DNA of 64,000 nt from Curvularia clavata (GCA_023920165.1 CP089276.1:682001-746000); one strand, 5' to 3'. Positions 7,548 through 52,353 are shown, counted from the stretch's first letter. Translations and numbers: made by a program. The notes: a model not told the origin generated them from the sequence alone.

Positions 7548-9653
7548 ATGCCTTTGCCAAAGTGCCTCAGGGGCCCCGTGCGCCGGGCCTCCACGCGCCA
7601 ATCGCAACGGAACAAATGTCGCATGTGTAATCATCTCGATCCGAGAGGCCATACCAGCTCGGTGTATGCGAACGAAGACGTCAAAGAGCCTCGTGCGAGC
7701 CTCAGCCTGGTGCTTGATGCTTTGAGTTTAGCAAAGGTGAAAGAAAGTGGATGTAGATTCTGCCTTGTCTTAGCCCTTGTTCTAGATGCTTTTTTTCCTA
7801 AATGGAGAGGCGCAAGAGTCAGAGTCAATGTCGACATAAAAGAGAAGGGCACAATCAAGGTCACGTTAAGCGGGGAACGTTGGAAGGATGAGATTGCCGA
7901 AATCTACGCCGCCCCAGGTAGGCAACTTTTCCCCGTGGCCAAGTTAGTCCTTTTTTGAAGCAGTGAGCTGGATGGTTTAGCCTCTGGATGAACAAGGAAA
8001 AGGCTATTATGTTCGCACATGGCGTCTATCTAACAACTTGCAGCGTCACGGCCACCATGGCCTACCTTGGGCTCTGCGCATCACATCCCAACCAACTCGG
8101 GATCGGATGACACATTCAACTTCATTCGGCGCTGCATACAAGGTTGCATTGGCAACCCAAAGCACACAGCCTGCAAATTTCCGTGTCCATCCAATTTCGC
8201 GCCTCCTAAGCGTCTTCTCGACGTAGGGAAAAGCTCATCACCTGTTAGACTTGTGGACACGCAAGACAAAAACTTTCAGTATGCTGCGCTTTCGCACTGC
8301 TGGGGATCATCCCCGCCGCTCATTGCAACCAAAGGGAACTGGGCCAAGATGAGCGTCAACATCCCTTTCGATTCTTTTCCTCCTTTATTTCAGGATGCGA
8401 TCATCATTACTCGCCAGCTCGGCTTACGCTATTTATGGGTTGACAGTCTCTGTATCATTCAAGATTCAATCCGAGACTGGGAAACTGAGTCGGCAAAGAT
8501 GGGCAGCATCTACCAGAACAGCTACGTCACGATAGCTGCGACACAGTCAGATAACAGTAGTACAAGATGCCTGGTTGAGAGGCGGAAGCCTGTTAAGATA
8601 TTATACCGCAACACCAGCGGAAAAGAAACCGCACTCAGAGCAAGGAAGATTTTAGATCACCATCCCAGCCACGCGCCGGGTGGAGGTCCTGCAAAACCAG
8701 TCGGTCCACTCACATCACGTGCTTGGGCGCTTCAAGAGCATGTTCTGAGTACGAGGATACTGCACTACACCGCAACAGAACTTTTGTTCGAGTGCAAAAC
8801 ATCATATCGTTGCGAGTGCATGCCAGAACGCAGGTCCTATCCTACAACCCCCGCGTTGATACCGAAAGCCGTTTCAAGCAAGAAAGTAGATGCTGTATGG
8901 CAGGCGTGGCAACGTATCATCGAGCACTATACGGCACGCCAGCTCACAGTGGGCACCGACAAACTCCCTGCGATCTCGGGTATCGCAAACAAAATCAGAA
9001 AAGCAACACACTCGGACTATCTCGCGGGCTTATGGAAATCCAACCTAGCTTCCGATCTGCTATGGCACGTGGACCAGTCAAACCTTCCTCACTCTGATGC
9101 CTTTGCACTAGAAAACTGGCGTGCGCCTTCTTTCTCTTGGGCAAGCTTGAATGCGCCCATCACTTACACGGTGTTAGACGAGGAGGAGCGCGAAATGTTC
9201 CAACCCACCATCGCCATTCTCAACTGCAAGATTACGCCTGTTGGGCTGAACCCGCTAGGTGCCATCTCGAGCGGATCCGTAAAGCTACGTGGCCCAGCTA
9301 TCTCCTGCACATTGTCTGCGAACCGAAATCACGGGGCCTGGGAGTATGATCTTGCGATCAAAGGAACAAGTACCATACGCATGTTACACGACTGCTTACT
9401 CACTGAAGTTGAGTTTGAAAATGATCGAGGAGAAAAACAACGAACAGCTCGTCGCGCACTAGCTTCTGATACCATATGTCGATTTGACACAAAGGCATTG
9501 TGTTTGGGTGTCGCCCGGTACGACAATGTTGTCGCGGGTCTAGTGCTGGGAGTATCGGCTCAACATCATCCAGCATGGGAGCGACTAGGGACTTTCGCAG
9601 CAGGTACCGAGGCAATTGAAAGGAGCAAAGAGATGGAACTAGTTCTTGTTTAA
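7548..9653 (+). CDS. HET-domain (heterokaryon incompatibility, PF06985-type) protein
   Basis: YAALSHCWG, DAIIITRQLGLRYLWVDSLCIIQD, WETESAKMGSIY and RAWALQE motifs; N-terminal CxxC…CxxC exon. Intron 7918-8043 joins it in frame to ORF 8067-9653. Confidence 0.9.
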
Positions 9654-11837
9654 TGCGGATCAACCCCAAGAGTTCAGTTGTATACCCGCGGATGTGGTAC
9701 TTGGGTTTCAGTGACATCATGTATTCTAGCGTTCCGTACTTTGCCGTCCTATTACACTTGCGACATCATTAGAGAAATGATGATTGACCTGTTTGGTATC
9801 ATTGATAGGCAGAATCTTGTAGTACTAAGAAGATTTACATTCTCGATAGTACGGCTGCATCTGAACTTGTCAAGCTTGAATATGCGACTATTCTTTCCAT
9901 CCTCGTGATATGCACACTTTGCAATATTGGAGGGTATCTCCGGTTGGGCAATTCCTACGAATAAGGCTCTGGTAAATGCCGAAAAGGGAAAAGCGACACA
10001 CCCATCGGAACCTCACACCACCATGTTAGAACGATGGGGAGTGAACGTGAGATTTTCCACCCCACTCGCCCTTGTAGTTTAATTGAATGTACCGCACCAC
10101 TGGTTTGCTGTCACGGCAATCATTTCCAGTGATGTCAGATGCTATCAATTGACTAAAACCGCTAGCTTTACAGCCGTCAATCAAGTAAACAGATTCATCA
10201 CTCGGGAATCATAGTCTGGGCCACACCTCAACGAGGGTGTTCGCTGATCGATCCATAATGGCTGATGTTCTCCATCAGGCTGGCAGCCCAAAGCTCAATT
10301 ATGACGCTCCCATTAAGTTCGCAGCAGGCACGGGCTAATAAGATTCAAGGGCCTTGCACACCGGTAGCCCGGGTTTTCAGCCCTGTGGCTTATCCTGTGA
10401 TTATTTGGTTTCCGGGATGCTCGAAAGACCATAGCGGCTGGGATCGGGGGTTATGGCTGACGCGTCTCGGTGACACACTTCGCCCTTGCGCCCTCATGTC
10501 TTCGAGACAGTGGGATTGGAGAGCCTGAGCAGCACAGAGTTTAAATCAAGCTTACCTATCTTGTGTCTGGCAGTCAGCAACGTCAGAAACAACGCCCTCT
10601 TTACTCCCGCCCATATGATGGCAACAAATACCGATCTCAAGCGATGCTGTGCACGACAGGAGAATGCAAGCTTGTGCTCGCACCCCCATCGAGTAAAGTT
10701 GCGACCAACGTCTTAGCACGATGGGGATAGCGGCATACTATAATTACCCAATATGGCCTGGCTGGCGTTAAGGAAACGGCTTGTGGAGAGCAAAACTCTC
10801 CTGCAATCGGTATCTCATACGTTAGTTGGTCTCGCACCCACAGCAAGTCTGTGCTTCTTCCTGTTGCTCCCAGCACGTCTCCTCTCGCTCGACTCGTCAG
10901 CCCCGTCTAGATTGCACCGCCGCCATGGTCCTCTTTTTTGCTTTCCCCCCTTTGGTACCAATAGGCCATGTGCGATCCTTGATTCGATGTGCCAAGGGCC
11001 ATAATTACCGCCCAGAGCCAGGCGCTTCCCGTTCTTAGCGGCTTGACTCGCAGGCCAATAGAAATCCAGATCTTATGAAGTTGCATTATTATAGCTTTCG
11101 GCAACAAGTCTGGGTCTTACTTTGAGAACTGCTTTTGTTCTCTAGAGTTCGATGAATGGATAATGCGCTTTCACAGGATAAAGGGTGGAGGCTGGTGGAG
11201 ATCAGAGATGTGAATTCAAGGTCACGGGGATTGTTCGGTTTCAGGAGTCCGAGGAGTCAGGGGGGGCCAGGAAGCTTGTGTGCGCTGTTTCAATACTCGG
11301 ATGACGTCTAGTTCTCCATGATCTCAATAGTGAATACACGGTAAGTTTTCCTGGTGTATTGGTCTTGTTATTCTAGATGATGTCGTGCATACTGTCCTCC
11401 TATGATAGCCAGGTACTAGCGCCGCCGATCTCCGGCTAGCGTGGCCTTGGGCGAAACAGTTCGAAACGCCCGCAACTGCGCTTGTCCTGCCACGGTCCGC
11501 GCCTTTAAACACTCCATAGCCTGTAGCACGCAAATAGAGCAGTAAACGGACCTAGCTTCCCCGGGAGGATCGTTGATTCATGTTAGTCTCCGAGATGATT
11601 TGCTTTTGGCGCCGTTTGTTAAGCGGATGGCCTGAGACCCCAGTGCAAATGGCCTGTTTCGTGGACCAGCTGTTTATATAGGAGGATGGCCTTCCACGAG
11701 CGTGGTCCTCCACCGCCTACACGAACAAGTTTTGGGACATTTGTTCGGCTTATTCATAGCTTCTTTGTTTTTGACCTGTGTTCGCTGGTCGTTCGTTCTT
11801 TTCGTCACTCGTTTAACATCCACTCTTTTCTCGCACC

Positions 11838-13898
11838 ATGTTGCACTCAGTTTTCCTTCTTTCTCTGCTTACGAGCACCGCCTTCGCCCAGCTTTGCGAG
11901 AGCAACTTGAAGACTTATGTTGGGAGCCTAGCGCTTCCTACTACTTTCTCTCCTGTCAAAACTGCAGGGCTGACCGGACTACCGCACCACCACCGCACGC
12001 CATTCGCCGTCTCGCCGGATGGAAAATCAGCATATCTTGCATACCTCGACGCATCAGAGATCGGCGTTTATGTTCAAAAGGTTGATCCTGTTACCTTCAA
12101 GGCCGTGGGGAAAGCCGTGAAAGTGCATTGCGGAAGGGAAGCTGGTGGCCTCGTCGCTCACAATGATGGATTCGCCCTTCTTACTAACGAACCAATGCCT
12201 CAGGGCACACCCAACGCACCTCCTAAGAATACTCCTGTAGCTGTACTGTACCGTTACACTGGCGACAAGCAAACCTTCAAGACCTTCCTCAGTGGCCCGG
12301 GCAACATCGCCGAGGCAGGCGCACTGTGTTCTCCGCAGCTGAACGGTGACCTTGCGTATTCCGAGGACACTGGCATGTATGGAGCCTACTTTGTCGTCTC
12401 CGGATACGATGGCCCCGCAAAGGGATATTCTGGAGATTCTCTTCAATACGTTAGCCAGAACGGCACCCTCGAACGCATCGCGGGTGCAACTTCAAGCTGG
12501 GGCTGCTCCCTGAACACTGGTATTGCGCTCGAGGCCTCTGGCTCAGCGCCTTTTGCCAGCGTTTGCGCAGATAATCAAGGTGGAATCTGGCTCAACACCG
12601 GTGGTACTGGTATGGAAAAGACTGGTACCAAGATCTCCAACGAGTATGCTCGCAAGGGTGCTCTGAATGAGCCCATGGGAGGCATTTCTGGTTCTTACAG
12701 CAGCCTTGCACGCTTCATCAACAAGGACTCCTATATCTTCACCTGGGTATCTCGAGGTGCCAAAGACTTGACTGTGAACAGTGACTTGGGCGAGGGTTAC
12801 ACAACTTCCAAGGCCCGAACCCAGAACCGTAATGTCGCTATCGCTACCTTTTCGGATAAGAAGACCCTAAATGGCAAGCCAGCCACCGGCCAGCCTGGAG
12901 CCAATGGTGACTCGCAAGTGAACTGGATCACAACCGGCTCTGCTGACTGCCACAATGCCCACGTTGCCCCTTTCGATGGCAGCAATGCACTTGTCACGTG
13001 GGAGGAGATTGCTAAACCAACCTGCGAGTTGCCAGCTGGAGGCTGCCAGGGCAAATTCACAGGTACTTACTTCCAGCTCGTCAAGGACGGTAAGAAGGTT
13101 GGCAAGCCGGTCAAGTCCACGAATGTGTATGTTTCTGGAGACATGGTCACGATGTCTGATGGCCGTGTATGCTGGCCTTATGTCGACATGAACTGGACCC
13201 TCGATGGCCCCGTTCTCCAACCCAAGATGTGCAACTCCATCAGCTTTGCATGCATGGGACTTGGCCAAACCGGACAGACTGCACCCCCTAAGTCCTCCTC
13301 GCCATCCAAACCATCGTCGCCTCCTATGGTCTCTTCCCCATCGAAGCCTTCTTCGCCATCAACACCTTCCTCACCTTCTAAGCCCTCCACTCCCGCCAAG
13401 GCCTCCACACCACCCGTATACTCCGCCCCTCCTGCTTCAACTCCCGCGAAAACCGCCCCATCTGCACCAGTCCTCACCGCTGCCCCGCCGCCGCCCGACA
13501 CATCTTTCGCGCTGTTCAACCCCGTCAGCACCCCCGTTGGCGGCGGTGGCTACAACCCTTACGAGTCCGTCTACGTCCCCGCCTCGCTCTCTTTCAACCC
13601 CATCCTAGCCCCAGCCTTCACGAATGTCTTCCCTGGTCTCCCCGGCGAATTCACAGCTGGCCCCGTCTTTCCACCTGTGCAGACACGCTTCCCACACAAG
13701 ACGCCTACTTCTACCCCTGCAGCGCCTACCGGACCAAGCGTCCCTTGCTCTAACAATGGCGGTAGTGGAGCGTATGGTGGAGCGCCAGCGTACGGCAATG
13801 GGGGCAACTCCCCTTGCACGCTTGAGACGAGGGTCAGGCCCTCGCCTACGGCACCTGCGTATGGTGGATCTGGATATGGATCTGGATCTGGGTATTAG
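11838..13898 (+). CDS. Secreted uncharacterised protein, 686 aa: a ~470-aa globular, beta-rich domain plus a Pro/Ser-rich tail ending in Gly/Tyr repeats
   Basis: Intronless ORF, signal peptide MLHSVFLLSLLTSTAFA, several Cys, SSPSKP repeats, terminal GYGSGSGY; TATA-like tttatatagg near 11673. Confidence 0.8.
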   Translation: MLHSVFLLSLLTSTAFAQLCESNLKTYVGSLALPTTFSPVKTAGLTGLPHHHRTPFAVSPDGKSAYLAYLDASEIGVYVQKVDPVTFKAVGKAVKVHCGREAGGLVAHNDGFALLTNEPMPQGTPNAPPKNTPVAVLYRYTGDKQTFKTFLSGPGNIAEAGALCSPQLNGDLAYSEDTGMYGAYFVVSGYDGPAKGYSGDSLQYVSQNGTLERIAGATSSWGCSLNTGIALEASGSAPFASVCADNQGGIWLNTGGTGMEKTGTKISNEYARKGALNEPMGGISGSYSSLARFINKDSYIFTWVSRGAKDLTVNSDLGEGYTTSKARTQNRNVAIATFSDKKTLNGKPATGQPGANGDSQVNWITTGSADCHNAHVAPFDGSNALVTWEEIAKPTCELPAGGCQGKFTGTYFQLVKDGKKVGKPVKSTNVYVSGDMVTMSDGRVCWPYVDMNWTLDGPVLQPKMCNSISFACMGLGQTGQTAPPKSSSPSKPSSPPMVSSPSKPSSPSTPSSPSKPSTPAKASTPPVYSAPPASTPAKTAPSAPVLTAAPPPPDTSFALFNPVSTPVGGGGYNPYESVYVPASLSFNPILAPAFTNVFPGLPGEFTAGPVFPPVQTRFPHKTPTSTPAAPTGPSVPCSNNGGSGAYGGAPAYGNGGNSPCTLETRVRPSPTAPAYGGSGYGSGSGY

Positions 13899-22623: not shown

Positions 22624-23672
22624 ATGGTTAAAATCGCAGTAGCTGGCGGCACTGGAAGTATGCTTCCCCTTGCTCGTGGCAGATTTACCCCACTTGGAAA
22701 TCACCATATCAGTGTAGATGTGCTATGCTAATACACTCACAACCAGACGTCGCGACCTGCATGCTTAAAGATGCCATTGCTTCTAATCAACACGAAATCA
22801 CCATTTTCACGCGCTCAGCGCCATCAAAACCGCATCCTTCTCCCAAAGTCAACTACCTCCAAGTCGACTACACCTCCCGCGAGGCCTTGACAACTGCACT
22901 CCGTGGATTCCACACAGTACTTTCTTTCTTAGTCGTGCACCTCGATGTCGACAACATCGCTCAGAAGAACCTGATCCACGCCTCTATCGCAGCCGGCGTG
23001 ACCCGTTTTGCACCTTCAGAATGGGGCATCGCCAGCAACAGCGGCGTCAGTAGTTATGACAACAAAGACTACATCCGCAAGTACCTCGAAGACCTCGACG
23101 AAAAGGGCGAGCTCAACGGGATGCAATATTGCCTTTTCCAGCCCAGCATCTTCATGGACTACTTTGCGCACCCCTACCCACTCGAGCCCGACCTCATCAC
23201 CTGGCCCTTTTTCATTGATTTTGAAAACCGACGGGCCATGATCCTCGATGATGGAAACCAGCCTCTTGTGCTAACCGCCATGCAGGATGATGCGGCGATC
23301 CTTTCTCTCGCCCTCTCCGACACGCAGCGTCCTTGGCCACGCGTGGGCGGTATCAGGGGCTGCCGCACCAACATGAACGAGCTAATTGCGCTCGGCAAGA
23401 AGATCCGTGGCGGCGAGTGGTCCATTGACCATATTTCCAGTGAAGATGTGGCTCGGGGTGAAATCAAGTCTAGTTGGATCCCGCCGCTAGACCATCCGGT
23501 TATTCCGCCGGAGGAGCGTGAGAGCTTCTCAAAGGTGTTTTTGATCATGTTCTTCACGGCGAGTAAGAATGGAGCGTGGAACGTGAGTGAGGAGTTTAAT
23601 GAGATGTTTCCTGAATACAAGTTCATGAGCTTGGAGGAGTATCTGACTAAGGCTTGGGAGGGAAAGCCATAG
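22624..23672 (+). CDS. NmrA-like / isoflavone-reductase-like NAD(P)-binding protein
   Basis: MVKIAVAGGTGNVA Rossmann motif across intron 22658-22746; AGVTRFAPSEWG motif. Confidence 0.88.
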
Positions 23673-23759: not shown

Positions 23760-26700
23760 CTATAAATTGTCAGAAATCTCTAGCAGCGATACAAGGCCAA
23801 AGTCACGACCTAGCGCAACTATGTCATCGTACACGGCCACACAATTTGCTCTGTATTCAGGCGGAAGCCACAGCACTCGCGAGCCCCGGTAATATACCCA
23901 CTGCTCTGAAACAAAGATTTCAGGTGGGCTTTTCAGCTTCGGCGATAAAGCAGAAAAGGAAAATCCGGTGGAGGCCGACCCGAAGTTAGTGTGCAAAAAG
24001 ACTGGGTTATCAGAGTACAAGAGCCTGCTAAGAGTAGCATCAGCAGAATGCTTCTGTGGCATTTCCCCCATATTTTCATGCCACAGCTTTTCGTCCCAGA
24101 GCTGAACCGTACCCTTCCTTGATGCTATTGCTAGTACCTCACCATCCGACGAGACAGCCGTCGCGTGGCACTCACTTGGAAGGCTCCGAAGTGTCTGCAG
24201 CAAGTCGCCCGTGCTAACGTCCCACAATTCGACTGTCTCGTCCCAAGATATCGATGCTATCATGCTGCCATCGGGCGAAAAGGCCGCTGCCATAACATCT
24301 GATGAAAAGGCCTCTGTCATAACATTTGATGAATGACCACTAAGGGTGACCCGTATTTTGCCTTGGCATATGTCGAATAGCGCTAGATCTCTCTGATCTA
24401 ATCCTATTGCTAGCAAGGCGCCGTTTGGAGAGAAGCCTACTGCAGTGATGCTCCTTGAATGGCTCTTAAAGCATAGTGCCCCCCTACCCTTGCCTAAGTC
24501 CCAAAGCTTGACTTCCCCGTCCCGGGAAGCTGATGCTAGCCATCTACTATCAGGCGAGAAGGCTACTTTCAGAATGACGTCCGAATGGCCCTTGAGCCTC
24601 TGTGGCTTCTTTTTCGTGTCGAAGTTCCATATGCCGATCACGTAGTATCCTGATTCCCAATTCTGTGATGTACACGCCAGCATCGTGCCGTCCGGTGAGA
24701 GAGCCCACCCCAAGACTGGGCTAGAATAGCTCTCGATCATTTCCCGTTCTGACCCTGATGACACATCCCACAGCTTGATCGTTAATAACTTATCTCCAGA
24801 CACCGACGCCAGCACCTTCCCATCAGGCGAAAAGGCCATGGATTTGACTCCACCTAAGTCTTGCTTGGTTGTTTGCACCACTGTTTCTGTACCTGCATCC
24901 CATAGCTTGACTGTCCCACCAGCTGAAATCGATGCTAGCATTTTACCATTTGGCGAGAAGGCTAGTGCTACAACTTCATCTGAGTGGCCCATAAGTGAAT
25001 GCAGCACAGCCGTCTCAGTCTTCCACAATTTGACTGTCTTGGACGATATGAACCCTAGTGACTTTGCGTCGGATGAGAAGACTAGTGTTTCTCTGAAAGG
25101 GGAATAGCCCACACACGTCTGCAGTGGTTCGCCTGTGTGTACTTCCCACAGTCTAAGTGTATTGTCATATGATGCTGATGCCAATACTGTGCCGTCTGGA
25201 GAGAAGATTAATTGCGTGACCCCGCCCCCATTGTCATTAAGGACCTGCAACATCGCGCCAGTGGTTGCATCCCATAACTTGACAGTCCCTTCACGAGACA
25301 CCGACGCTAGGATATTGCCGTTAGGTGACAGTGCCGCTTTTGCTTTTCCATAGCTCTCAACAGTCCGCATCACTTTGCCCGTTTGTACGTTCAGTACGCT
25401 GGCCGTTTTGGAATAAGAGTCAAATACCAACGCGAATGCGGTACCTTCAGGCGAGAATGTCACTGCCCCAGCGCGGTCTGAAGCACACGCGAACGTTCGC
25501 TCTCTTTTGAAAGTACTCAGGTTCCACAGTTCAACCGTCGCAGACTTCACGCTGTTTATCTGATGTGATATGAATGCTAGCATTCTAGAGTCTGGTGAGA
25601 AGGCCACATCGTCAGTCCAGCCGTCCGAGAACGTCCAAAGTAGCTGGCCTGTGTAGACATCCCATAACTTGACCGATTTGTCGTACGATGATGATACCAG
25701 CATCTTGCCATTCGGTGAGAAGCGTATGCCGAATGAATGGTTTTCGAGTGTGTGAAGTATAGCACCCGTATCTACATCCCACAGATTGATATCACTTGAT
25801 GCCGACGCCAGAATCTTACTGTTTGGCGAGAAGGCCACTGTATTGCCAGTAGAAGAGTGTTCTTTGAGTGTCTGTAGTAGCGCGCCCCACCTGCTGTCTA
25901 CTTGGGGTAGCCTCTTTATCCACCCTGGTATCTTGTCTGCGAACTGCTTCTTTACTATGCTTCCACTCGGTGCAAATACCAGCGCGCTGCAGTACACTTG
26001 CAGAGGGGCTTTCTCGATTGCCGCCCGACTGTATAGCGTAAACCGCTTCATGTCACGTACAAATTCACAAATCTCACGACATTCGTTTGTCTATAGTGCT
26101 ATTAGCTATACTCTGTATGGACTACGGATTGGACCTACTCGTGTCATCGACTCCGACAAAGAGCCAATAGCGTGGATACCTTGTGACAGCTTGCCCATCC
26201 AACACAGCGCCTCTAGCCAGTGCAGGAAGTGCTCTTGTAGAAAGCCATGTACTTCATCGCCGTCATGAAGCTTAGCACCGCCTCGTACAAAGTGTTCTAT
26301 CCAGTAGTGACAGGCATATTGCAGCTCGGAGGGGAGAGCTGGCTTGAACTCCGCCCCCTCATCCTCAGTCACCAATGTACAAACTTTATCAATCCCACAA
26401 GCGCCTTGCTGGAGAGAACTAGACATAAGCTGTAGGCATTTAATTGCCAAGTCTCGATGCGCCTCCTGCTCGTCTACCAGAAAGTTGGTATCGCTGCATC
26501 TATCGCCGCTGAGCAGGAAGTCACGGAACGACGGGTGATGCAGACGGAGCAGCTGCGCATTGTCCTTAGGGATGGCGATAATGGCATTGAGACGTTTCAA
26601 AACCCTGCCCGCATACATCTTCTGGAGTCGGAGAACTTTGAAAAGCGCATCAGCTGAAAGAGGAGAAAGCAAGGTGACCATACCTCCTAGTAAAGTTCGT

Positions 26701-27869
26701 AGATCTTTGTAGTACTTTTTCCGTTCTTGTGCACTGTAATTTTCCGGAACAGACGCCTGTAGCACTGTAGTGTAGATGCTGTCGAGGTGCGCTTCAGGAG
26801 AGCTCTTGTGCCTTCCGCCCTCGAGAAGCATGTGTAGTCTTCCGTCAACATCTGTGCCTTCGCAAATGAAGCGAAAGGCAGTAGCAGCCCAGATGAAAAG
26901 ACCGCTTGCTTTCTGGACTAAGCCGTCAATTGCTTTTGCCTTAGGCCAGTCCTCTTCTATGCCCTCTCCCTGGCGATAACACTCAAACTCATGCCTTAGG
27001 AAAAGATCTATGTCCTGATTGACGGCCAGCGGCGGTATGTCGTGCAGTACAACCTCATATGGCACAAACTTATCATTTTCCTGCAAACGGTTGAACTGGG
27101 ATTGGATTGGCGCTTCGGGCCTGCTTGTCAGCAGTATCCGCAACCGGACCTTCGTTAGTGATTTAGCCTCAGCTAACAACCGCACGATGAGGCCGATGTC
27201 CTTCTCATTCTCGCACTCGTCGAGCGCGTCCACAACTAGAACGAGCGAGGCTGGGCAGCTGTCATCGCTCAGCTCCGATAATGGACCGAGGATAAGATGT
27301 CTCCACTGTTTTTCTAGAGAAATGGTGGCAATATCCTTGCTGTTGAGAGCCTTTTTAATAAGCTGTTTCGACGCTTCCACATTGTGCATAAGCTGCACTG
27401 CGAGGCTCGTTGCGAATTTTTTCGCGTAGCGTACATCTTCGCTGCCACCACGCGAGAAGAAAAAGCTGGCCGCTAGACGATTCTTCTCTTCATCGTATTT
27501 GTGCGCGACCGTCCGCGCGATCGTCGATTTGCCTGTCCCTGCTAACCCGCTCAGCCAGAAGATGCACCGATCGTCTTGCCTGTCCGCCCAGTCGTCTATC
27601 TCATTCAGTAGATCAATACGTGTATCTTCGAGACAGCGAGGTTCGTGTTGATGAGCGGACGAGTATATGGGCGCGTCAATAGCATTCCAATTCCTCAGAG
27701 GATCTTGAGATTGTCTGCACTTGTTAAATATGACAACCACTTCTGTGCAGAGCTCCGACGGTACATACTGTATATGCATATCTCCATACCATTCCACTGG
27801 TCCCATTATTCCAATCTTCGAGTCATGGCTGGTGAAGTTATTGGGTTGGCTATGGGCTGGAGAACTCAT
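23760..27869 (-). CDS. NLR-type STAND protein (NWD2/HET-E-like): short N-terminal putative amyloid motif, NACHT domain, ~14 WD40 repeats; about 1335 aa
   Basis: CLEDTR, Walker A WLSGLAGTGKSTIARTVA, Walker B LVLVVDALDEC, TSRPE, GLFIWAAT, HHPSFRDFL, YACHYW, LHWLEAL, PLQVYCSAL and repeated FSPDG…VKLWD units. Exons 27869-27769, 27714-26139 and 26090-23760. Confidence 0.93.
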
Positions 27870-28432
27870 AGCAGGCGTACGAAAGAGTACAATAGCAATT
27901 ACGGGCAGGTGTAAAGAGGCAGATACAGCCCCATTGATGAGAAGAAACTGGTTGTAGCAACCTCTAAATGCAAATAGGATAGAAAGAATGAGATCCATGG
28001 TCCTTCGGAAGGTAGCAAAGGCACCACATTAACCTGACCCCGCAGCTGAAAAGCGCCACGCCGCATCATCAACGTATGTGTATGCATAAGTGACATGATT
28101 TATAAGGCTATAGAGTGGCATCAGCTGCGGATATACTCTCAGCGCTCACCGGTTCCACGTTGGCCTGATCGTTCTACGTCTCCATAAATTATTGGATCAA
28201 TATAGACACCACTAAACATGAAGTCAAATTCTTCGGAAAATTGTGCTGTAAAAGTGATTAAATTCAACGTCTTGCAGATGAGATGCTCAATATTTGCTCG
28301 CATAAGGACTTCTCCACAGATACATTGGCATCCAGTTGTTCAACGGAGCACGTCCTGCATTATTGCTTCACAAACTATTTAGATAGGACTATACTTGAAG
28401 CCAAAACTCAAGACATGGATGTTGGCCAGACG

Positions 28433-29261
28433 TTAAAGGTTAATATTTCCATGCTGGGTTACGTTATGCCCTATGATTCCAACCTTACTGTTGTTTGTAT
28501 GAAATGTGGCACCATGCTTGCTGTCCTTCTAAACAGTCAGTCACAGTCACAGCTACTCCCAGGCTACGTTTACTTACGGCAGCTCCAATAGCCGCAGATA
28601 TGGCCGCCTCCAGCTCCTTGTCCTGTGATCGGACGATCTCTCTTAAGACAGGCAAGCCCTCTTCGCCAATCTCACGGACTTCATCCTCGCAAAGTTTGCG
28701 CTGCTCCTGCTTTACAGCTGGGAGAAAATCTGGGAGGGTGTCGACTAGGTCCTTGATATCTTCAATCAGCCTCTTGAAGTATCTTTCCTCATATAGCGCC
28801 CACTTCGATTTTTGGGCCAGCGTGCTTTTATTCTGACGCTTGATGCATAACTTGCGCATTTTCTCATGTAGCGACTGGCCGACAGAGTCCATATTGGCCT
28901 TCACCTCGAGTGCGGCGAGATCTGGGTCGTCTGCTCGCTTGCGATGCTTGAATTTGGCGGAGCGTTTCTCGACGTCATCGAATAGGTCCAGTATTTGACC
29001 CAGTACTTCCTCAGCCTTTTCTATGTCTTCCTGCTTGACGCCCGCGGCTTCCAGTGATCGAACGTTCTTTAGATCACCACTGAGGCCTACAGATTCACCC
29101 CATCGTGAGAGCCGTAGCCTCGCATGGTCCAGTTTCAGCAGGCTAGTCTGGAAATTGGTGCCAAAGCTGCGGCCAAGCTGGACATACTCGAAGCATTCCA
29201 CAGCGCTGTTGAAGAGGCCTGCAAGCCCTACGATACCGACGGCGACGCCGACCGTTTCCAT
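28433..29261 (-). CDS. HET-S-like HeLo-domain cell-death effector with a C-terminal putative prion-forming/amyloid motif; 259 aa
   Basis: N-terminus METVGVAVGIVGLAGLFNSAVECFEYVQLGRSFGTNFQTSLLKLDHARLRLSRWGESV closely follows HET-S; KWALYE…LIEDI…LVD motif. Intron 28529-28577 (GTAAGT…CTGAC…TTTAG); last exon KDSKHGATFHTNNSKVGIIGHNVTQHGNINL*. Confidence 0.9.
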
Positions 29262-30490: not shown

Positions 30491-31597
30491 CTAATGGAAG
30501 TAGCTCTTAATCTTGGGCAGAATGTTAATCCAAGCAGCACCAGTGGTAGGCTCCATGCTGTACATGTAGTCACCCCACCAGGGGCCAGCAGCCCACCAAG
30601 CAGCACCCATCCAGACGTCCGAGTTCTTCTTCATGTAGTCAAGACCACCCTGGAGAGCCGTAATACACTGGGCGTTGCTACCAGCGCCGAACTCGCCAAG
30701 GAAACCCTGGAGCTTGTTGTCCTTGAGCCATTGGGTGGCTGCCTGGAGACGTTCCTGGAGAATGGTGCTGCTAACGCAGTCGGCGTGGGTGCCGGACGAG
30801 TCGCTGTCGAGGTACTGGTGCATCTGGAAGACGAGCTTGTTCTGAGGGTCCTTGAGCTTGATCATGCTTGCGGCGTTGCCAGATGAGACCCAGCTCCAGG
30901 CACCGGTCCAGGAATTGCCCTCAGGGGTGATGTATTGCTTGGTGGCGCCAGCAGCGCGGATTCCGTCGATACCGGCTTGATTGAGGCTGACGACAAGATT
31001 TTGATCCATGTCATGGAACTCATTATTGATATCCAGGATAACCAGCTCGTTGTCCTTAAACGGCGTGGCGACAGTAGTCCACCACTTCTTGAAAGCTGCG
31101 GTATCGGTGATGATCTGGCCGTTGAAGCGGCCGTAGTTGTGTGGCTGGATCATAGCATACGCACCCTTGGAGGTGACGTAGTGCACAAGCTCAGTAAGGT
31201 TTCCAGAGTAGTAGGGGTCCAACGAGCCAGTAAGCCCGCTTGGCGTCAGGCGCTCCATCAAGAAGTTGATGCGGAAAAGGTTCATGCCCTGTGCCAGGAA
31301 TTGGTCAACCTGCTTGGTGTCGATCCAGATGTAGTCCTTGTTGTAGAGGCCGGGAAGGTTAGCCTCGCCAAACTCTGGGCCAGACTCGTTGATACCGAAC
31401 CATTTCAGCTTGCCGCTAGCCTGGCTTGCTGAAGAAGAGCCTGCTGCTGCAGCTGCCGCTGGCGCTGAAGAAGAGCTTGCTGCCGCTGGAGCTGGCGTTG
31501 TAGCAGCCTGAGTGGAACCTTTGGGTTGGTTGCGGTGGGGGCAAGCCAAAGCGGTGCCAGCCAGGGCGACCGCAGCGAGAATGTTGTTAAAAAGCAT
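30491..31597 (-). CDS. Secreted GH5 endo-beta-1,4-glucanase (GH5_5-like)
   Basis: Signal peptide, Ala/Ser linker, GINESGPEFG, PHNYGR, catalytic NNEFHDM and LGEFG, HQYLDSD, WAAGPWWGDY. Confidence 0.93.
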   Translation of the reverse strand: MLFNNILAAVALAGTALACPHRNQPKGSTQAATTPAPAAASSSSAPAAAAAAGSSSASQASGKLKWFGINESGPEFGEANLPGLYNKDYIWIDTKQVDQFLAQGMNLFRINFLMERLTPSGLTGSLDPYYSGNLTELVHYVTSKGAYAMIQPHNYGRFNGQIITDTAAFKKWWTTVATPFKDNELVILDINNEFHDMDQNLVVSLNQAGIDGIRAAGATKQYITPEGNSWTGAWSWVSSGNAASMIKLKDPQNKLVFQMHQYLDSDSSGTHADCVSSTILQERLQAATQWLKDNKLQGFLGEFGAGSNAQCITALQGGLDYMKKNSDVWMGAAWWAAGPWWGDYMYSMEPTTGAAWINILPKIKSYFH

Positions 31598-32878
31598 GGT
31601 AAGGAATGAAATAAGCTGTCTTGGAAAAAAGCTTGGGTTGTCGGCGTACCAAGCAAACTGGGGGCGACCAAGGCTTCTTTATACAAAGGACCATCCAACA
31701 TTAAATAACCACATGGACCACATGGCACATCGCCAGCCGGAATCTAGTGTCCCGTCTCCTCAATAGTATACAATCAATTCCGTCGGTGCTAATATGAAAC
31801 TGGCGCATAGAGAATGGGGTACGCGGTGTTCTGGAGCCGGGATCCAGATTGCATTACCCAAAGCTGCCTCGCTTCGCTCTGATCGGGTAGGGATATGGGT
31901 CATGTGTCGTGCCGCGGACGAAGCAACAGATTGCCATTCGTGGAAGCGGTGGAAACGTGAGGACACGCACGTGTGAAACAATGCGCCATCTGTAAATGCC
32001 GTCAGAGTGTGTGCCGTAATTTCGGGGCTGGCCATGAAACGTTGGACTGGGCATGGATACTCCACGAGGACTAACGTTTTAAACACATGTCACTCGCTGA
32101 TCATAGGCCAAACCCCGTTAGCAAGATTGCCCGTAGATTAATCCTTCTGCGTCCTTACTGTTTTAGTACTAGTGTCATATTTGCCGGTGGGTTTTGACCT
32201 GGGGAACGCTGTCACAGAGGCGATGATGAGAAAGGAAAGGCGCGGGAACGCTAAGCATCAGGAACCGGAAAGTTTAAATTGCTTGACACTTATTATGCAT
32301 TTAGCTTGCTGGACCAGAGCGTAATGTCCACCAAACAAAATTTGTTGACCGCGGTATGAATAGGTTCGTGGTTTTATGAAGGGTTAGGCCTACGTATGCT
32401 TATGCCAGATCGCAGAGCTGTCTCTTCTTACTCAAAACTAGCAGCCGGTCACGTTTTCAGTGTTGCAAATACCTGGTATTGTTAGCAGACCTTGGTTGTA
32501 AAGAGGAGGTGCCTGGGCCTCATGTCGCACAAACAACGACCTCAATCTCGTTCACAGCACCACGTTTTTTGTGGGTAGCCGATCGAACCGGTAGTAACGC
32601 CGGCCCACGCTCTCGGTGCAAATTGTCAGTGCGAACCGTCTGGAAACCCCCCGATACCTGTGGCCTGGAACCGGTCTTGAGTGATCATATGTAGACGAAC
32701 AGGGGCCACCAATCCTGGGCTGTCAGAATGATGTCACTTCATGTGTCCTTCATGTACTTCTTCTACGCAAACATGCAATTGAATTGTGATTATTGCCATT
32801 GAACGCCTACTATGAACATTTCGTCCGATGCAAACCCTGAGCGACTGATATCCAGGACTTCCGCTTGCTGAAAGCTCG

Positions 32879-49795: not shown

Positions 49796-52353
49796 ATGTT
49801 ACAACCAGACGTGCAAAACAAATACCCGATCGGAAGTACACCACCTAGAACATTCATCCCGTACCTAGTATTTGTATCGCTTCTTGTCAGCTTAACCGGG
49901 ACTTTTACCACTGTAGAGCTGCTGCACCGAAGAGTATCTAGTGTAGGATGGCGCTCTTGGTATGCATTACAAGACCATATCTATGTTTCAACATTTGACA
50001 TCTCGCAGGGCCGATGTTGCAATCTGTTCAACCAACTTCGTAATAGTGGCAGTCTGGTGCATGCACTTCATAGGAAATTCCGCCATTGTCCTTGGTCACG
50101 GAGAACAAGAAATTCAGCTCTACTACGATGTGACATACTCCGCTCTATCAGCTATCCTACCAATCCTTCCTGCCTTTGTAGGACTTTCGATAGCGGCAAT
50201 TTTCTATGAAATCGGTCGCGGAGCTGTTGTTCGACTTGGATCACTTGCTATATGCGGGCTCTGTACCGGGGGTGCAGTAGCGATGATGCGCTACCTATGT
50301 AACAACGGCATAAGCAATCTCATCGTCTCATATAGCTTGGGAAGCATTTTTGGCGCCACAGCTATTGCCATAGTCGCGTGTTCTGTTGGGTTCGGTCTCT
50401 CTTTCTACTGGGGCAGACGTTGGATCAACAATATCTGGAGGCGAATGCTGGTGTCTTTCATACTGGGTCTGGGCGTCTGGGGGTAAGTAGTGTAGGTACA
50501 ACATCATACGGTCATGTTTCTGACATAGTCTAGGATGCATTGGACTGCGGTACTAGGCACTCGGTATCAGATTCGGAGCTATCACGACCAGGAAGATGTG
50601 GACAGAAACACGAGCCTCATCATTGCTTGTTGTCTTGTAAGTCACATGTTTGATTGAAATTCTTTCCAACTAACAATGAGACCAGTTAGTAATTTCATGC
50701 ATCGGATGCAGCATTCTATGTTACATCAAAGAAAGGCAACGGCAACAAACAGAGACCATGGTACAGCAAGTCATCCTAGCTGTTGCTCTTTTCGACGAGG
50801 CAGGGAGCTTGTTGGTTGACAAGATCGGCTTGATGCCATGCCAGACTCTCACAGACGATTTCAACCAAATAGCTTTGGACGATGAATTCAACACATCGCA
50901 CCCGGTTTTTCAATGGATCTTTAGGGTCACAAGGAACTGGAGCGGCATCTCCGATCTCATTCCGTCAATGCACGGACATTTACAATCAGCTGGACGGATA
51001 CGCAACTCGCATTGCGAGATTAATGATTCAGTACGCGCAACCAATTTCCGAGAGTTGTTTTGCATCACGGCCGAAAGCATCGCAGCATCGCTTAACATGA
51101 GCCTCGAAAATCTAGGATGCTTGTACGAGGACGTTTTAACTATTGGTACGACAATGAAGTATGATACGACACGGATGAGCGCACGCTTGGGAACAGCTAC
51201 TCCTGAAATAAAAGCTGCCATCAACAATCTCGAATTGGGAAAAATAACCCCAACTGTTTTTGGCAAGGGCCAGATGCTTCTACTCACAAAAACGGTTGAC
51301 AACACGGAAGCGCACCGACTGCAGCAATTGGGCTACAGGTTTGCTGACGTCGAGCAAGTCAGTGATAACCTAGCTCGTAGCTTTCAGATGCCCTGTGGTG
51401 ATGTCGAGTATCTCATGGCTCGCCTCCATGCTTTCAGCAAAAGGCAGCATCGTGTGCCGAAGAAGGGCACTTACCTTGCCTCCTTCTTGATACAACCGAA
51501 GCCTGGTATGAAGGACATTGACGTTGTGGTATGGCGGGCGAACCCCGGCCGGCTTCCAATGATCAAGCTGGATGAAGATCAACTTGAAGGCCGGCAACTA
51601 GAACTTCTCTCGACATTCGACGGACTCACTTTGGACAAGTGTCTCGCGCAGATCAAAAGATCGTCGAAATTAGGCACCGGTGATACCGCCTTCATGCAAA
51701 AGTTTCGCAATGGGATCGAAAGCCTTCTCCGAGAATGCCCTGAGGAGACTCTACGTTCTGCTCGTTTTTCAGCACAACAACTCGACATGGTGCATGGGCA
51801 GACACAGTTCAGCGAGGCAAAAGTGTTTGCTTTCTGCGGAATCAAGGAGATTTACATCCAATCGCTGCAGAGCCTCACACTAAAGACGATACCGTTTTCT
51901 TTCTTCAACACATATCTCAGGTCACAACCGGAATGCGTGGATCATGACGCGCTGGTCAAAAGAAACCGCGACGAATTTGGCCCTGTACAACAAGCACGGT
52001 CGGGTGCAGCAACACCCACTAGTCTCGGTGCCGGTAGGCCTAAGAATCTGCGCAAGAAGCAATCCTCATTGAGTGTGAGGAGTTGGAATGCAGAAACAGG
52101 GTCGGTAGAATCGCGTGCGAACTATAGACTGACGAGATCTCTCACTGCGGTTTCGGCGCACTTGTGGAGTGGTATGGTCATGACTTCGATCATGAATATC
52201 AGCTCGGCCGACTGCAAAAGTGACGGTAAAGGGGACGCTAATATGATGAACAAAGAGTGCCAGACGCTGGCTGATCGACTGATGTTCATCACGACATCGT
52301 TCCGTGGTTCACACTCGAGCCAAGGGTCCTTCCGATTGGGAGTCCAGAATTAA
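49796..52353 (+). CDS. Fungal MHYT-domain membrane sensor protein
   Basis: TTVELLHRR, WCMHFIGN and GMHWT motifs, multiple TM helices, cytosolic region with FNTSHPVFQWIFRVTRNW; introns 49960-50008, 50483-50533 and 50637-50685. Confidence 0.85.

What the first reader, a model, noticed from the sequence alone, without database searches (positions are those of the whole stretch)
23760..29261. Adjacent HeLo effector and NACHT-WD40 NLR share a terminal motif: a candidate amyloid-signalling cell-death system
Seen: two co-oriented genes 563 bp apart. The spliced effector ends FHTNNSKVGIIGHNVTQHGNINL*. The NLR, which has no effector domain of its own, begins MSSPAHSQPNN-FTSHDSKIGIMG-PVEWYGDMHI. With one gap the motifs share 8/22 identities (F, S, K, G, I, G, V, G) plus conservative pairs (T/S, N/D, V/I, I/M, H/Y, N/D, I/M, L/I). 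Established: in Podospora NWD2/HET-S and Chaetomium PNT1/HELLP, the NLR's N-terminal amyloid motif templates the C-terminal prion-forming domain of the neighbouring pore-forming effector, triggering necroptosis-like death. Inference: this is a functional pair of that type.
Basis: partly seen in the sequence, partly recalled or inferred. Interest (0 to 1): 0.95.

Follow-up and report, generated by a model that had tools for sequence, protein, structure and literature searches.

The report
Fungal HeLo–NLR amyloid-signalling gene pair
Two neighbouring, expressed fungal genes, a HET-S-like pore-forming death protein and a NACHT-WD40 immune receptor, carry matching short end motifs of a catalogued but little-studied type, so this is a further example of a known cell-death wiring, not a new kind.

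Summary
On the minus strand lie a 258-aa HeLo protein (Pfam HeLo E 1.8e-51; HET-S structures E 6e-38) and, 563 bp downstream, a 1335-aa NACHT-WD40 NLR with no N-terminal effector domain. RNA-derived contigs from two studies and one metatranscriptome show splicing of the effector intron. One contig shows the 54-nt NLR intron just after the N-terminal motif.

The two motifs share 8 of 22 residues with one gap (shuffle p about 0.002). The pair belongs to a conserved, mainly Dothideomycete family. I found 9 further adjacent pairs in 8 metagenome loci and 4 pairs in named genomes. The NLR-side and effector-side profiles are homologous (hhalign 95%, E 3e-8), and cognate partners are more alike than non-cognate ones.

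The NLR-side motif is "NLR39" (PP-like) of Wojciechowski 2022, whose supplement lists one such HeLo pair. The window's pair is a divergent member: both partners lack the central Q, and the NLR motif is one residue shorter and escapes the family profile. Amyloid templating is inferred, not shown. I class it as a new member of a known kind, of modest interest.

The parts
28578..29261 (-). Effector exon 1 (228 codons). It holds the HeLo membrane-targeting domain (residues 5-199, window 28665-29249), with a Gly-rich hydrophobic N-terminus METVGVAVGIVGLAGLF.
   Evidence: Translation. Pfam HeLo PF14479 E 1.8e-51. HET-S/HET-s HeLo structures 2wvo/2wvn E 6.4e-38 and 6.6e-37.
28526..28577 (-). Effector intron, 52 nt (GTAAGT...AAG).
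   Evidence: Contigs of runs X1 and X5 (two studies) and of X16 (on record as metatranscriptome) join 28524 to 28577, 'skips 52, CT..AC (cut +1)'.
28433..28525 (-). Effector exon 2: 30 codons (DSKHGAT + motif) and the stop codon 28435-28433. The whole protein is 258 aa.
   Evidence: The effector-tail HMM, built from 17 homologues without the window, hits this peptide at E 1.6e-6.
28436..28504 (-). Effector C-terminal signalling motif, residues F236-L258 (FHTNNSKVGIIGHNVTQHGNINL), in a single copy.
   Evidence: The position equals that of the published NLR39-type hit in the Paraphaeosphaeria sporulosa HeLo protein (236-257).
27870..28432 (.). 563-nt spacer between the two genes. It contains the effector 3' UTR (RNA contigs reach 28243) and the NLR 5' leader (RNA contigs reach 27910 in X5 and 28011 in X1). 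It also holds an in-frame upstream ATG at 27998 and a short out-of-frame uORF from 27934.
   Evidence: Sequence; ORF 26106-28028; contig pieces.
27769..27869 (-). NLR exon 1 (33 codons plus 2 nt), encoding only the N-terminal extension with the motif.
   Evidence: Homologous NLRs start the same way (MSSLPAHQP.., MSSAQPVSF..).
27771..27836 (-). NLR N-terminal signalling motif, residues F12-I33 (FTSHDSKIGIMGPVEWYGDMHI). It is one residue shorter than its partner's motif and than those of orthologues.
   Evidence: Smith-Waterman 57 against the N-terminus of Corynespora cassiicola PSN61266.1, reached by 0 of 10,000 shuffles. That protein is annotated NLR39 at 12-35.
27715..27768 (-). NLR intron 1, 54 nt (GTATGT...CAG), directly after the motif. 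Homologues have an intron at the same place.
   Evidence: A 5135-nt contig of X5 joins 27714 to 27769, 'skips 54, CT..AC'. Homologous loci read ..IVK/YA.. or hit a stop at that point.
26139..27714 (-). NLR exon 2: pre-NACHT linker, NACHT NTPase (about 27084-27602) with Walker A GLAGTGKST and Walker B LVLVVDALDE, and winged-helix/helical domains.
   Evidence: Pfam NPHP3_N E 9.6e-30, NACHT E 1.1e-8, HTH_TANC1 E 2.2e-5. 19,108 relatives at E<=1e-3.
26091..26138 (-). Predicted NLR intron 2, 48 nt (GTAGGT..GCTAAT..TATAG), in frame and carrying stop codons.
   Evidence: Read from the sequence. Not tested with RNA, because it lay outside the stretch that was laid.
23760..26090 (-). NLR exon 3: WD40 repeat sensor region (10 WD40 stretches by Pfam) and a C-terminal part. 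Stop codon 23762-23760. The whole NLR is 1335 aa.
   Evidence: Translation. Pfam WD40 PF00400 E 1.2e-78, 10 stretches. No DNA-level tandem repeat of WD40 period.

Best explanation
This is a two-gene NLR signalosome of the NWD2/HET-S kind in a filamentous ascomycete, judging by its closest relatives a Dothideomycete.

Proposed mechanism:
1. The NACHT-WD40 protein senses a ligand through its WD40 repeats and oligomerises through its NACHT domain.
2. This brings several copies of its 22-residue N-terminal motif together, and they fold cooperatively into an amyloid-like (beta-arch) nucleus.
3. The nucleus templates the homologous single-copy motif at the C-terminus of the neighbouring HeLo protein.
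4. That conversion releases the HeLo N-terminal hydrophobic segment, which inserts into the plasma membrane and kills the cell.

Shown here: the domain architecture, adjacency, expression and splicing of both genes, family-level homology of the two motif sides, and within-pair co-variation.

Inferred by analogy with NWD2/HET-S, FNT1/HELLF and PNT1/HELLP: amyloid folding, templating and killing.

The motif belongs to the class catalogued on the NLR side as NLR39 ('PP-like'). The window carries a diverged, mutually adapted variant of it, with core G-I-I/M-G in place of G/A-x-Q-x-G.
For: Architecture:
- HeLo PF14479 E 1.8e-51.
- NPHP3_N/NACHT plus 10 WD40 stretches, and no domain in NLR residues 1-89.
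- HET-S/HET-s HeLo structures E 6e-38.

Expression:
- Intron-less joints with GT..AG ends for the effector intron in X1, X5 and X16.
- The same for NLR intron 1 in X5.

The window pair itself:
- 8 of 22 identities, Smith-Waterman 37, reached by 33-34 of 20,000 shuffles.
- In a fixed register with one gap, each partner is the best match of the other among 13 pairs: score 44 against a mean of 15.2 for non-cognates.

The family:
- The effector tail is a family member (HMM E 1.6e-6).
- The NLR N-terminus is positionally homologous to that of PSN61266.1 (Smith-Waterman 57, 0 of 10,000 shuffles), which is annotated NLR39 at 12-35.
- 9 HeLo/NLR pairs carry both motifs in 8 of 49 metagenome loci.
- 4 named-genome pairs have consecutive accessions. 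Two of them are listed as neighbours within 20 kb in S2 Table of Wojciechowski 2022.
- NLR-side versus effector-side profiles: hhalign probability 95.1%, E 3.1e-8, 22 columns in one register.
- An NLR-core HMM ranks 11 NLR ends first, then HeLo tails at ranks 12-20 and 24.

Co-variation:
- Cognate mean 31.4 against permuted mean 22.2 (sd 2.3); 5 of 100,000 permutations reach the observed value.
- The 2 of 13 effectors without Q at core positions 9/10 (window, L004b) both have NLR partners without Q10.

Mechanism of related systems: Daskalov 2012 (sections 7-9, 11 and 16 read) and Bardin 2021 (passages).
Against: - No member of this motif class has been tested for amyloid or prion behaviour. 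The 'Exp.' column for NLR39 in Table 1 of Wojciechowski 2022 is empty.
- The window's NLR motif is not found by the NLR-core HMM (absent from 1044 rows at E<=1000). The effector-tail HMM does not find it either.
- It lacks the family's N2 and Q10, is one residue shorter than its partner, and holds P, W, E and D.
- Without the gap the pair scores 13, ranking 7 and 5 of 13.
- Pairwise similarity alone is only moderately significant. One chance peptide in the window scores higher.
- The gene order is tandem here, but divergent in 9 of 9 metagenome pairs.
- An RNA contig of X1 reaches 28011, beyond an in-frame ATG at 27998 with a good context. A longer NLR isoform with 43 extra N-terminal residues cannot be excluded.
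- The permutation test ignores relatedness among pairs.
Confidence: 0.72

Rival explanations
1. Decayed or rewired coupling. The two genes descend from a signalling pair, but in this genome the NLR motif has drifted too far to template its neighbour (loss of Q and N, a one-residue deletion, a proline). The HeLo protein would then be idle or triggered by another NLR elsewhere in the genome.
For: The window's NLR motif escapes both family profiles. It has a one-residue deletion relative to its partner and to orthologues. The ungapped score is below the non-cognate mean (13 against 15.2). The gene order is rearranged relative to 9 of 9 divergent metagenome pairs.
Against: The changes are shared. 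Both partners carry G-I-I/M-G and S/T at position 2, and with one gap each is the other's best match of 13. Drift of one side alone would not produce that. Both reading frames are intact over 258 and 1335 codons, and both genes are transcribed and spliced. The deletion lies next to G/P/N residues, which are typical of a turn (inference).
Confidence: 0.15
2. Non-amyloid recruitment. The matched ends are a short homotypic interaction motif that docks the HeLo protein onto the NLR oligomer, for example by beta-strand pairing in a finite complex, without prion-like self-propagating templating.
For: No amyloid evidence exists for this motif class. The window's motifs lack the Q/N residues usual in fungal signalling amyloids and contain charged residues and a proline.
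Against: Every functionally studied fungal NLR/HeLo or HeLo-like pair with matched ends works through amyloid/prion templating: HET-S, HELLF, HELLP and CgHELLP (passages of Bardin 2021). The family consensus has the G/N/Q-rich, alternating hydrophobic pattern typical of such motifs.
Confidence: 0.09
3. Chance resemblance between two unrelated neighbours.
For: The pair has only 8 of 22 identities. One unrelated six-frame peptide in the window scores higher (46 against 37).
Against: The same architecture recurs with matched ends, the same register and an intron at the same place in 9 metagenome pairs and 4 named-genome pairs. The two sides are homologous at profile level (E 3.1e-8), and cognate partners co-vary.
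Confidence: 0.02

Closest known systems
NLR39-type NLR/HeLo pair of Paraphaeosphaeria sporulosa (XP_018036993.1 / XP_018036994.1), S6 Table of Wojciechowski et al. 2022, PLoS Comput Biol (PMC9815663)
   Same: The effector is of the same HeLo clade: XP_018036994.1 = P0064, 56% identical to the window's HeLo. The motif positions match: NLR 12-35 and effector 236-257, against 12-33 and 236-258 here. The motif is a single copy on the effector.
   Different: The window's pair lacks the central Q on both sides and the NLR motif is one residue shorter. The paper calls NLR39 PP-like and reports 20 NLRs, 0 neighbour hits and 1 co-occurring pair. Here I find the HeLo partner next to the NLR in every locus with enough flank.
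NWD2 / HET-S of Podospora anserina
   Same: Both have an adjacent NACHT-WD40 NLR without an effector domain, plus a HeLo protein whose domain is a clear homologue (E 6e-38 to 2wvo/2wvn). Both show homology between the NLR N-terminus and the effector C-terminus. The proposed templating mechanism is that of Daskalov 2012.
   Different: HET-S carries two 21-residue repeats forming a beta-solenoid, whereas this effector has one 23-residue motif. The HET-s/HRAM signature and Pfam PF11558 are not matched. NWD2/het-S are divergently transcribed, while the genes here are in tandem (one search says both orders occur).
PNT1 / HELLP (PP motif; Chaetomium globosum and P. anserina)
   Same: Both use a single-copy motif of about 20 residues on the effector. 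The family consensus here has a G/A-hydrophobic-Q-hydrophobic-G core reminiscent of PP and RHIM. The sister clade of these HeLo proteins carries true PP tails: PF17046, 41 of 120 listed homologues.
   Different: The effector here is HeLo, not HeLo-like. The NLR is NACHT-WD40, not NB-ARC-TPR. PF17046 hits neither partner, and hhalign against 41 PP tails gives 0.5% and 2.4%. No third, lipase partner with the motif lies in the 64-kb window.
FNT1 / HELLF (HRAM5) and other HRAM pairs (Daskalov 2015, PMC4518210)
   Same: Both are NLR/effector pairs with matched termini. They serve as precedent for several mutually non-cross-seeding motif families in one species.
   Different: HRAMs occur as two repeats on the effector. 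The hydrophobic pattern at positions 3, 6, 14 and 16 is not kept here.

Membership tests
Fungal NLR/effector amyloid-signalling gene pair (NWD2/HET-S paradigm) | The effector has a HeLo or HeLo-like membrane-targeting domain followed by a short C-terminal extension. | tested here: met
   HeLo PF14479 E 1.8e-51 over residues 5-199, followed by about 58 residues that end in the motif. HET-S structures E 6e-38.
Fungal NLR/effector amyloid-signalling gene pair (NWD2/HET-S paradigm) | [quoted passage not shown] | tested here: met
   NPHP3_N/NACHT starts at residue 90 of the unspliced reading, which is 72 after removal of the 54-nt intron. No Pfam hit lies before it. There are 10 WD40 stretches.
Fungal NLR/effector amyloid-signalling gene pair (NWD2/HET-S paradigm) | The two genes are adjacent. 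| tested here: met
   A 563-nt spacer, same strand. Daskalov 2012 reports both divergent and same-direction pairs.
Fungal NLR/effector amyloid-signalling gene pair (NWD2/HET-S paradigm) | The NLR N-terminus is homologous to the effector C-terminus, with co-evolution within a cluster. | tested here: met
   Window pair: Smith-Waterman 37, p about 0.002. Family profiles: hhalign 95.1%, E 3.1e-8. Cognate above permuted pairs in all but 5 of 100,000 permutations.
Fungal NLR/effector amyloid-signalling gene pair (NWD2/HET-S paradigm) | The motifs form amyloid or prion, cross-seed, and activate the effector's toxicity. | not testable with these tools
   This needs peptides or in vivo fusions. No published test exists for this motif class.
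NLR39 motif class (Wojciechowski 2022) | A 24-residue motif starting at about residue 8-12 of a short-N-terminus NLR. | tested here: met
   The window motif spans F12-I33. All 12 NLR39 rows seen (of 20; the file is cut) start at 8-12. Smith-Waterman 57 against the NLR39-annotated PSN61266.1 N-terminus, 0 of 10,000 shuffles.
NLR39 motif class (Wojciechowski 2022) | A G-hydrophobic-Q-hydrophobic-G core, and a match to the class profile. | tested here: not met
   The window has G-I-M-G, with no Q and one residue fewer. My own NLR-core HMM of 13 relatives does not hit it. The authors' own HMM (S7 Data) could not be read.
HET-s motif / HRAM | Two 21-residue repeats on the effector; N at positions 1 and 18, G at 10 and 17, hydrophobic residues at 3, 6, 14 and 16. 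| tested here: not met
   The 30-residue exon 2 has room for one motif only. PF11558 hits none of the proteins whose tables were shown in full, at E<=1 or E<=10. The N-to-G spacing of 16 is kept in the family consensus, but by my reading of the alignment the hydrophobic pattern is not.
PP motif (Pfam PF17046 Ses_B; FxGx(x)NxGLQLxGxNxGxL) | A match to PF17046, or the pseudo-palindrome centred on Q. | tested here: not met
   PF17046 hits control PP-type tails (P0045 E 1.2e-9, P0096 E 7.8e-7). It does not hit the window's proteins or 4 class-a effectors. It does not hit the 3 NLRs whose full tables were shown. For P0143 and P0147 only the best 25 rows were shown. hhalign against 41 PP tails: 0.5% and 2.4%.
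Sigma motif (GxGxQFNxx / GGTQNINT, three units; PF17106) | A threefold repeat of submotifs A and B. | tested here: not met
   No PF17106 hit. The family's tail end (..HGGQTIxL) recalls submotif B once only.
PUASM | FxGxGxQxxGxGxF, associated with PNP_UDP effectors. | tested here: not met
   The pattern is absent and the effector is HeLo.

The most novel reading that the evidence does not exclude
The NSKI../..RIAIQAG.. motif (NLR39) may be a distinct HeLo-coupled signalling-amyloid family of Dothideomycetes, not a form of PP. The window would then hold a naturally re-coded specificity variant of it. In that variant both partners replaced the polar Q/N ladder positions by hydrophobic residues (core G-I-I/M-G) and the NLR shifted register by one residue. 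That would be a snapshot of how a private, non-cross-seeding signalling channel arises by co-evolution of receptor and executioner.
Probability: 0.3. Interest if true: 0.5.

Novelty: new member of a known kind. Interest (0 to 1): 0.32.

Why it matters
NLR-to-executioner signalling by amyloid templating is an established principle in fungi, with parallels in mammalian necroptosis and in bacteria. One more pair does not change that picture.

Three things are useful to specialists:
- The class catalogued only on the NLR side as NLR39 (20 NLRs, no neighbour hits in the main table) is consistently paired with a HET-S-type HeLo protein. That is so in 9 metagenome pairs, 4 named genomes and this window.
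- The two sides are homologous at profile level, yet separate from canonical PP.
- The window offers a transcribed pair whose core has changed in both partners together. This is a ready test case for how sequence sets cross-seeding specificity.

Tried and rejected
- **Complex prediction.** Three copies of the NLR end plus the effector tail returned 'no answer'. It is evidence neither for nor against binding.
- **Own genome.** It is not held, so paralogous pairs or a better-matching NLR elsewhere could not be sought.
- **Other motif classes.** HRAM, PP, sigma and PUASM were considered and rejected.
- **A third motif-bearing partner** (for example a SesB-type lipase). The effector-tail HMM hits nothing else in the window below E 4.9.
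- **Peptide at 50336-50530.** It scores above the NLR end against the tail, but lies out of frame inside another gene with 5 of 26 identities, so it is chance.
- **WD40 repeats.** They are not near-identical DNA repeats; no period of about 126 was found.
- **RNA cover.** No contig covers 28012-28242, and depths differ between the two genes. I draw no conclusion from either.
- **Run X9.** It holds the exons, but no joint was listed for it.
- **Authors' NLR39 profile.** The .hmm file cannot be read, and S1 Table is cut, so only 12 of 20 NLR39 rows were seen.
- **Tree.** The careful tree did not finish. Only a quick tree is cited.
- **Earlier notes of this scan.** There are none on this genome. 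A word search gave only bacterial analogues, which did not affect my reading.
- **Literature searches.** 'NLR39' occurs in no fungal paper other than the 2022 one and its preprint (10 papers hold the string).
- **Not run.** A second homologue search for named full-length NLRs was judged unnecessary.

Full report
**What is there.**
Read on the minus strand, the finding's span holds two genes.
- The upstream gene starts at 29261 and encodes 228 residues up to a GTAAGT donor at 28577. Pfam assigns residues 5-199 to HeLo (PF14479, E 1.8e-51). The closest solved structures are the HeLo domains of Podospora HET-S/HET-s (2wvo E 6.4e-38, 2wvn E 6.6e-37).
- After the intron, a short exon ends in FHTNNSKVGIIGHNVTQHGNINL and a stop at 28435-28433.
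- The second gene starts 563 nt further on, at 27869, with MSSPAHSQPNNFTSHDSKIGIMGPVEWYGDMHI. It continues into an NPHP3_N/NACHT NTPase (E 9.6e-30 and 1.1e-8) with intact Walker A and B motifs.
- After a predicted 48-nt in-frame intron (26138-26091), it continues into a WD40 region with 10 WD40 stretches (E 1.2e-78). The stop is at 23762-23760.
- Nothing is detected in the first 89 residues of the unspliced reading. The NLR therefore has no effector domain of its own.

**RNA evidence.**
- Of 19 runs listed, I laid four.
- Contigs of X1 and X5 (one organism label, two studies) and of X16 (on record as metatranscriptomic) join 28524 to 28577. They skip 52 nt with GT..AG ends on the minus strand.
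The acceptor is the AG 3 nt further on, so the intron is 28577-28526 and exon 2 begins DSKHGAT... The frame and the motif are unchanged, and the protein has 258 residues.
- A 5135-nt contig of X5 also joins 27714 to 27769, skipping 54 nt with GT..AG ends. This is an intron placed directly after the NLR's motif (...GDMHIQ|QSQDP...).
- X1 and X5 are only guessed to be RNA by the tool. The intron-less joints at two canonical introns argue that these contigs come from spliced RNA.
- The X5 NLR contig ends at 27910. A low-depth X1 contig reaches 28011, beyond an in-frame ATG at 27998. A longer isoform with 43 extra, non-conserved N-terminal residues cannot be excluded.
- Homologous NLRs start like the 27869 reading (MSSLPAHQP.., MSSAQPVSF..). 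The published motif positions (start at residue 8-12 in 12 of 12 rows seen) fit it too.

**Is the resemblance more than chance?**
- That score was reached by 33 of 20,000 shuffles of the NLR end and by 34 of 20,000 shuffles of the tail.
- Against all 2376 six-frame peptides of the window (110,030 residues), the NLR peptide ranks second. The one higher hit (50336-50530) is out of frame inside another gene, with 5 of 26 identities.
- Taken alone the match is suggestive, not compelling. The comparative data decide the question.

**The family.**
- A search with the HeLo exon found 206 relatives at E<=1e-3 among 2221 candidates. The 120 listed are 50-74% identical. Where named, they come mostly from Pleosporales and other Dothideomycetes, and some from lichen-forming fungi.
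- Their C-termini fall into three groups:
  - 41 carry a PP-type tail. Two tested controls hit Pfam PF17046 at E 1.2e-9 and 7.8e-7.
  - 17 carry a complete tail of the window's type, with consensus TFNNYNSKIxxQxxxxxxHGxQ and then a short hydrophobic end.
  - Most of the rest are gene models that stop just after the intron donor.
- In a quick tree (the careful search did not finish), all 41 PP-type proteins lie on one side of a branch (SH-aLRT 90). No PP-type protein lies on the other side, which holds 22 of the 23 window-type rows. The window's protein groups with P0005 (99).
- A scan of metagenome contigs with the HeLo alignment gave 49 loci. In 8 of them, a tail of this type and an NLR N-terminal exon carrying a related motif are both present. 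This makes 9 pairs, because L004 has two.
- All 9 pairs are divergently transcribed. In the 4 family loci without a detected NLR end (L001, L002, L005, L011), less than 270 nt lies upstream of the HeLo gene, so they say nothing. Two further weak or odd tail hits (L018, L037) were left aside.
- Named genomes add four pairs with consecutive accessions:
  - Corynespora cassiicola PSN61266/PSN61267;
  - Exserohilum turcica EOA91948/EOA91947 (locus tags 03400/03401);
  - Stagonospora sp. OAK94516/OAK94517;
  - Paraphaeosphaeria sporulosa XP_018036993/XP_018036994.
- Two of these are listed as neighbours within 20 kb in S2 Table of Wojciechowski 2022.

**Homology of the two sides, and co-variation.**
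- Both sides share one register: F0, N2, K/R6, I7, G/A8, Q10, G18.
- A profile of 13 NLR ends against a profile of 17 effector tails gives hhalign probability 95.1%, E 3.1e-8, over 22 columns.
- An HMM of the NLR ends, run over 15,617 six-frame peptides, ranks 11 NLR ends first. HeLo tails follow at ranks 12-20 and 24.
- Across 13 pairs, scored in the fixed register with BLOSUM62, cognate partners average 31.4 against 22.2 (sd 2.3) for permuted partners. Only 5 of 100,000 permutations reach the observed value. Some pairs are close relatives, so this is not an exact probability.
- With the one-residue gap, the window's pair scores 44. Each partner is then the other's best match of 13. Without the gap it scores 13 (ranks 7 and 5).

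**The window's pair is an outlier.**
- Its tail is recognised by the effector-tail HMM (E 1.6e-6).
- Its NLR end is found by neither family HMM.
- The NLR end is nevertheless clearly the orthologous segment. It scores 57 against the C. cassiicola NLR N-terminus (0 of 10,000 shuffles) and 40 against that of E. turcica (1 of 10,000).
- Relative to the consensus, both window motifs have S/T in place of N2 and I/M in place of Q10. Both have a G one position early (G-I-I-G and G-I-M-G).
- The NLR motif is also one residue shorter between K6 and the conserved G.
- Only two of the 13 effectors lack Q at positions 9/10 (window and L004b). Both of their NLR partners also lack Q10.
- I read this as joint divergence of a working pair, not decay of one side. 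This is inference.

**What it is called in print.**
- Pfam's three signalling-motif models hit neither partner of this family: PF11558 (HET-s), PF17046 (PP) and PF17106 (sigma). For two WD40-rich NLRs only the best 25 rows were shown.
- hhalign against 41 PP tails gives 0.5% and 2.4%.
- Wojciechowski et al. 2022 lists the C. cassiicola NLR with motif 'NLR39' at residues 12-35 in S1 Table. I read sections 19, 24, 33 and 61 and searched the supplements.
- The main text mentions NLR39 once, as resembling PP by its G-hydrophobic-Q-hydrophobic-G pattern.
- Table 1 gives NLR39 20 NLRs, 0 neighbour hits, 2 effectors, 1/1 co-occurrence and no experiment.
- S6 Table holds that single pair, from P. sporulosa, tied to PF14479/PF17111. 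Its effector is my homologue P0064.
- The motif class and one HeLo pairing are therefore on record. The regular adjacency to a HeLo gene, the effector-side consensus and the separation from PP are not stated in what I read.
- 'NLR39' occurs in no other fungal paper of the library.

**Mechanism.**
The model is the one proposed for NWD2/HET-S (Daskalov 2012, section 7). It was shown experimentally for NWD2/HET-S, FNT1/HELLF and PNT1/HELLP (passages of Bardin 2021).
1. Ligand binding to the repeats drives NOD-mediated oligomerisation.
2. The clustered N-terminal motifs fold into an amyloid nucleus.
3. The nucleus converts the effector's motif.
4. The HeLo domain then attacks the membrane.

Here only the parts list, their expression and their co-evolution are shown. 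Folding, templating and killing are inferred. A complex prediction gave no answer.

**Surroundings.**
- The flanking genes are ordinary: an NmrA-like protein at 22632-23669 (+) and a GH5 cellulase at 30494-31678 (-).
- Further away lie a HET-domain gene at 8034-9650, a P450, a kinase fragment and others.
- No other motif-bearing gene lies in the window.

**Verdict.**

Noticed in passing
window 27870-28011: The NLR leader holds an in-frame ATG at 27998 in a good context. It would add 43 hydrophobic, non-conserved residues. It also holds a short out-of-frame uORF from 27934 (about 11 codons). One RNA contig (X1) covers both; the deeper X5 contig starts at 27910.
   Followed up: partly
window 24277-24333: A 27-nt tandem duplication (2.1 copies, 90% matches) lies inside one WD40 repeat of the NLR. 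It gives the doubled peptide ..SSNVMTEAFSSDVMAAAFS...
   Followed up: no
window 8034-9650 (+): A gene with a HET (heterokaryon incompatibility) domain, PF06985 E 1.7e-28, lies about 14 kb from the pair.
   Followed up: no
L004 about 9569-13539: One metagenome contig carries two HeLo/NLR pairs of this family next to each other. Each pair is divergently transcribed and each has its own motif variant. One of them also lacks the central Q on both sides.
   Followed up: partly
L001 180-1007 and L002 30-878: In these two short contigs (1164 and 1041 nt), the HeLo domain and the tail motif lie in one open frame without the intron seen in the other loci. They may be assembled from spliced RNA.
   Followed up: no
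L018 825-1010 (-): A peptide upstream of, and opposite to, a HeLo gene matches the effector-tail profile (E 2.4e-6), not the NLR-side profile. No strong NACHT match was listed for this locus. It may be an NLR end of effector-like sequence.
   Followed up: no
P0067 (Coniosporium apollinis, partial): This is the only protein with a window-type tail that sits inside the PP-tailed HeLo clade in the quick tree. It hints at a motif swap or an intermediate.
   Followed up: no
P0125-P0274 (NLR representatives): NACHT domains 37-52% identical to the window's are joined to many different N-termini. These include HRAM-like, PP-like and this motif, as well as long effector domains. This illustrates domain shuffling among fungal NLRs.
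   Followed up: no
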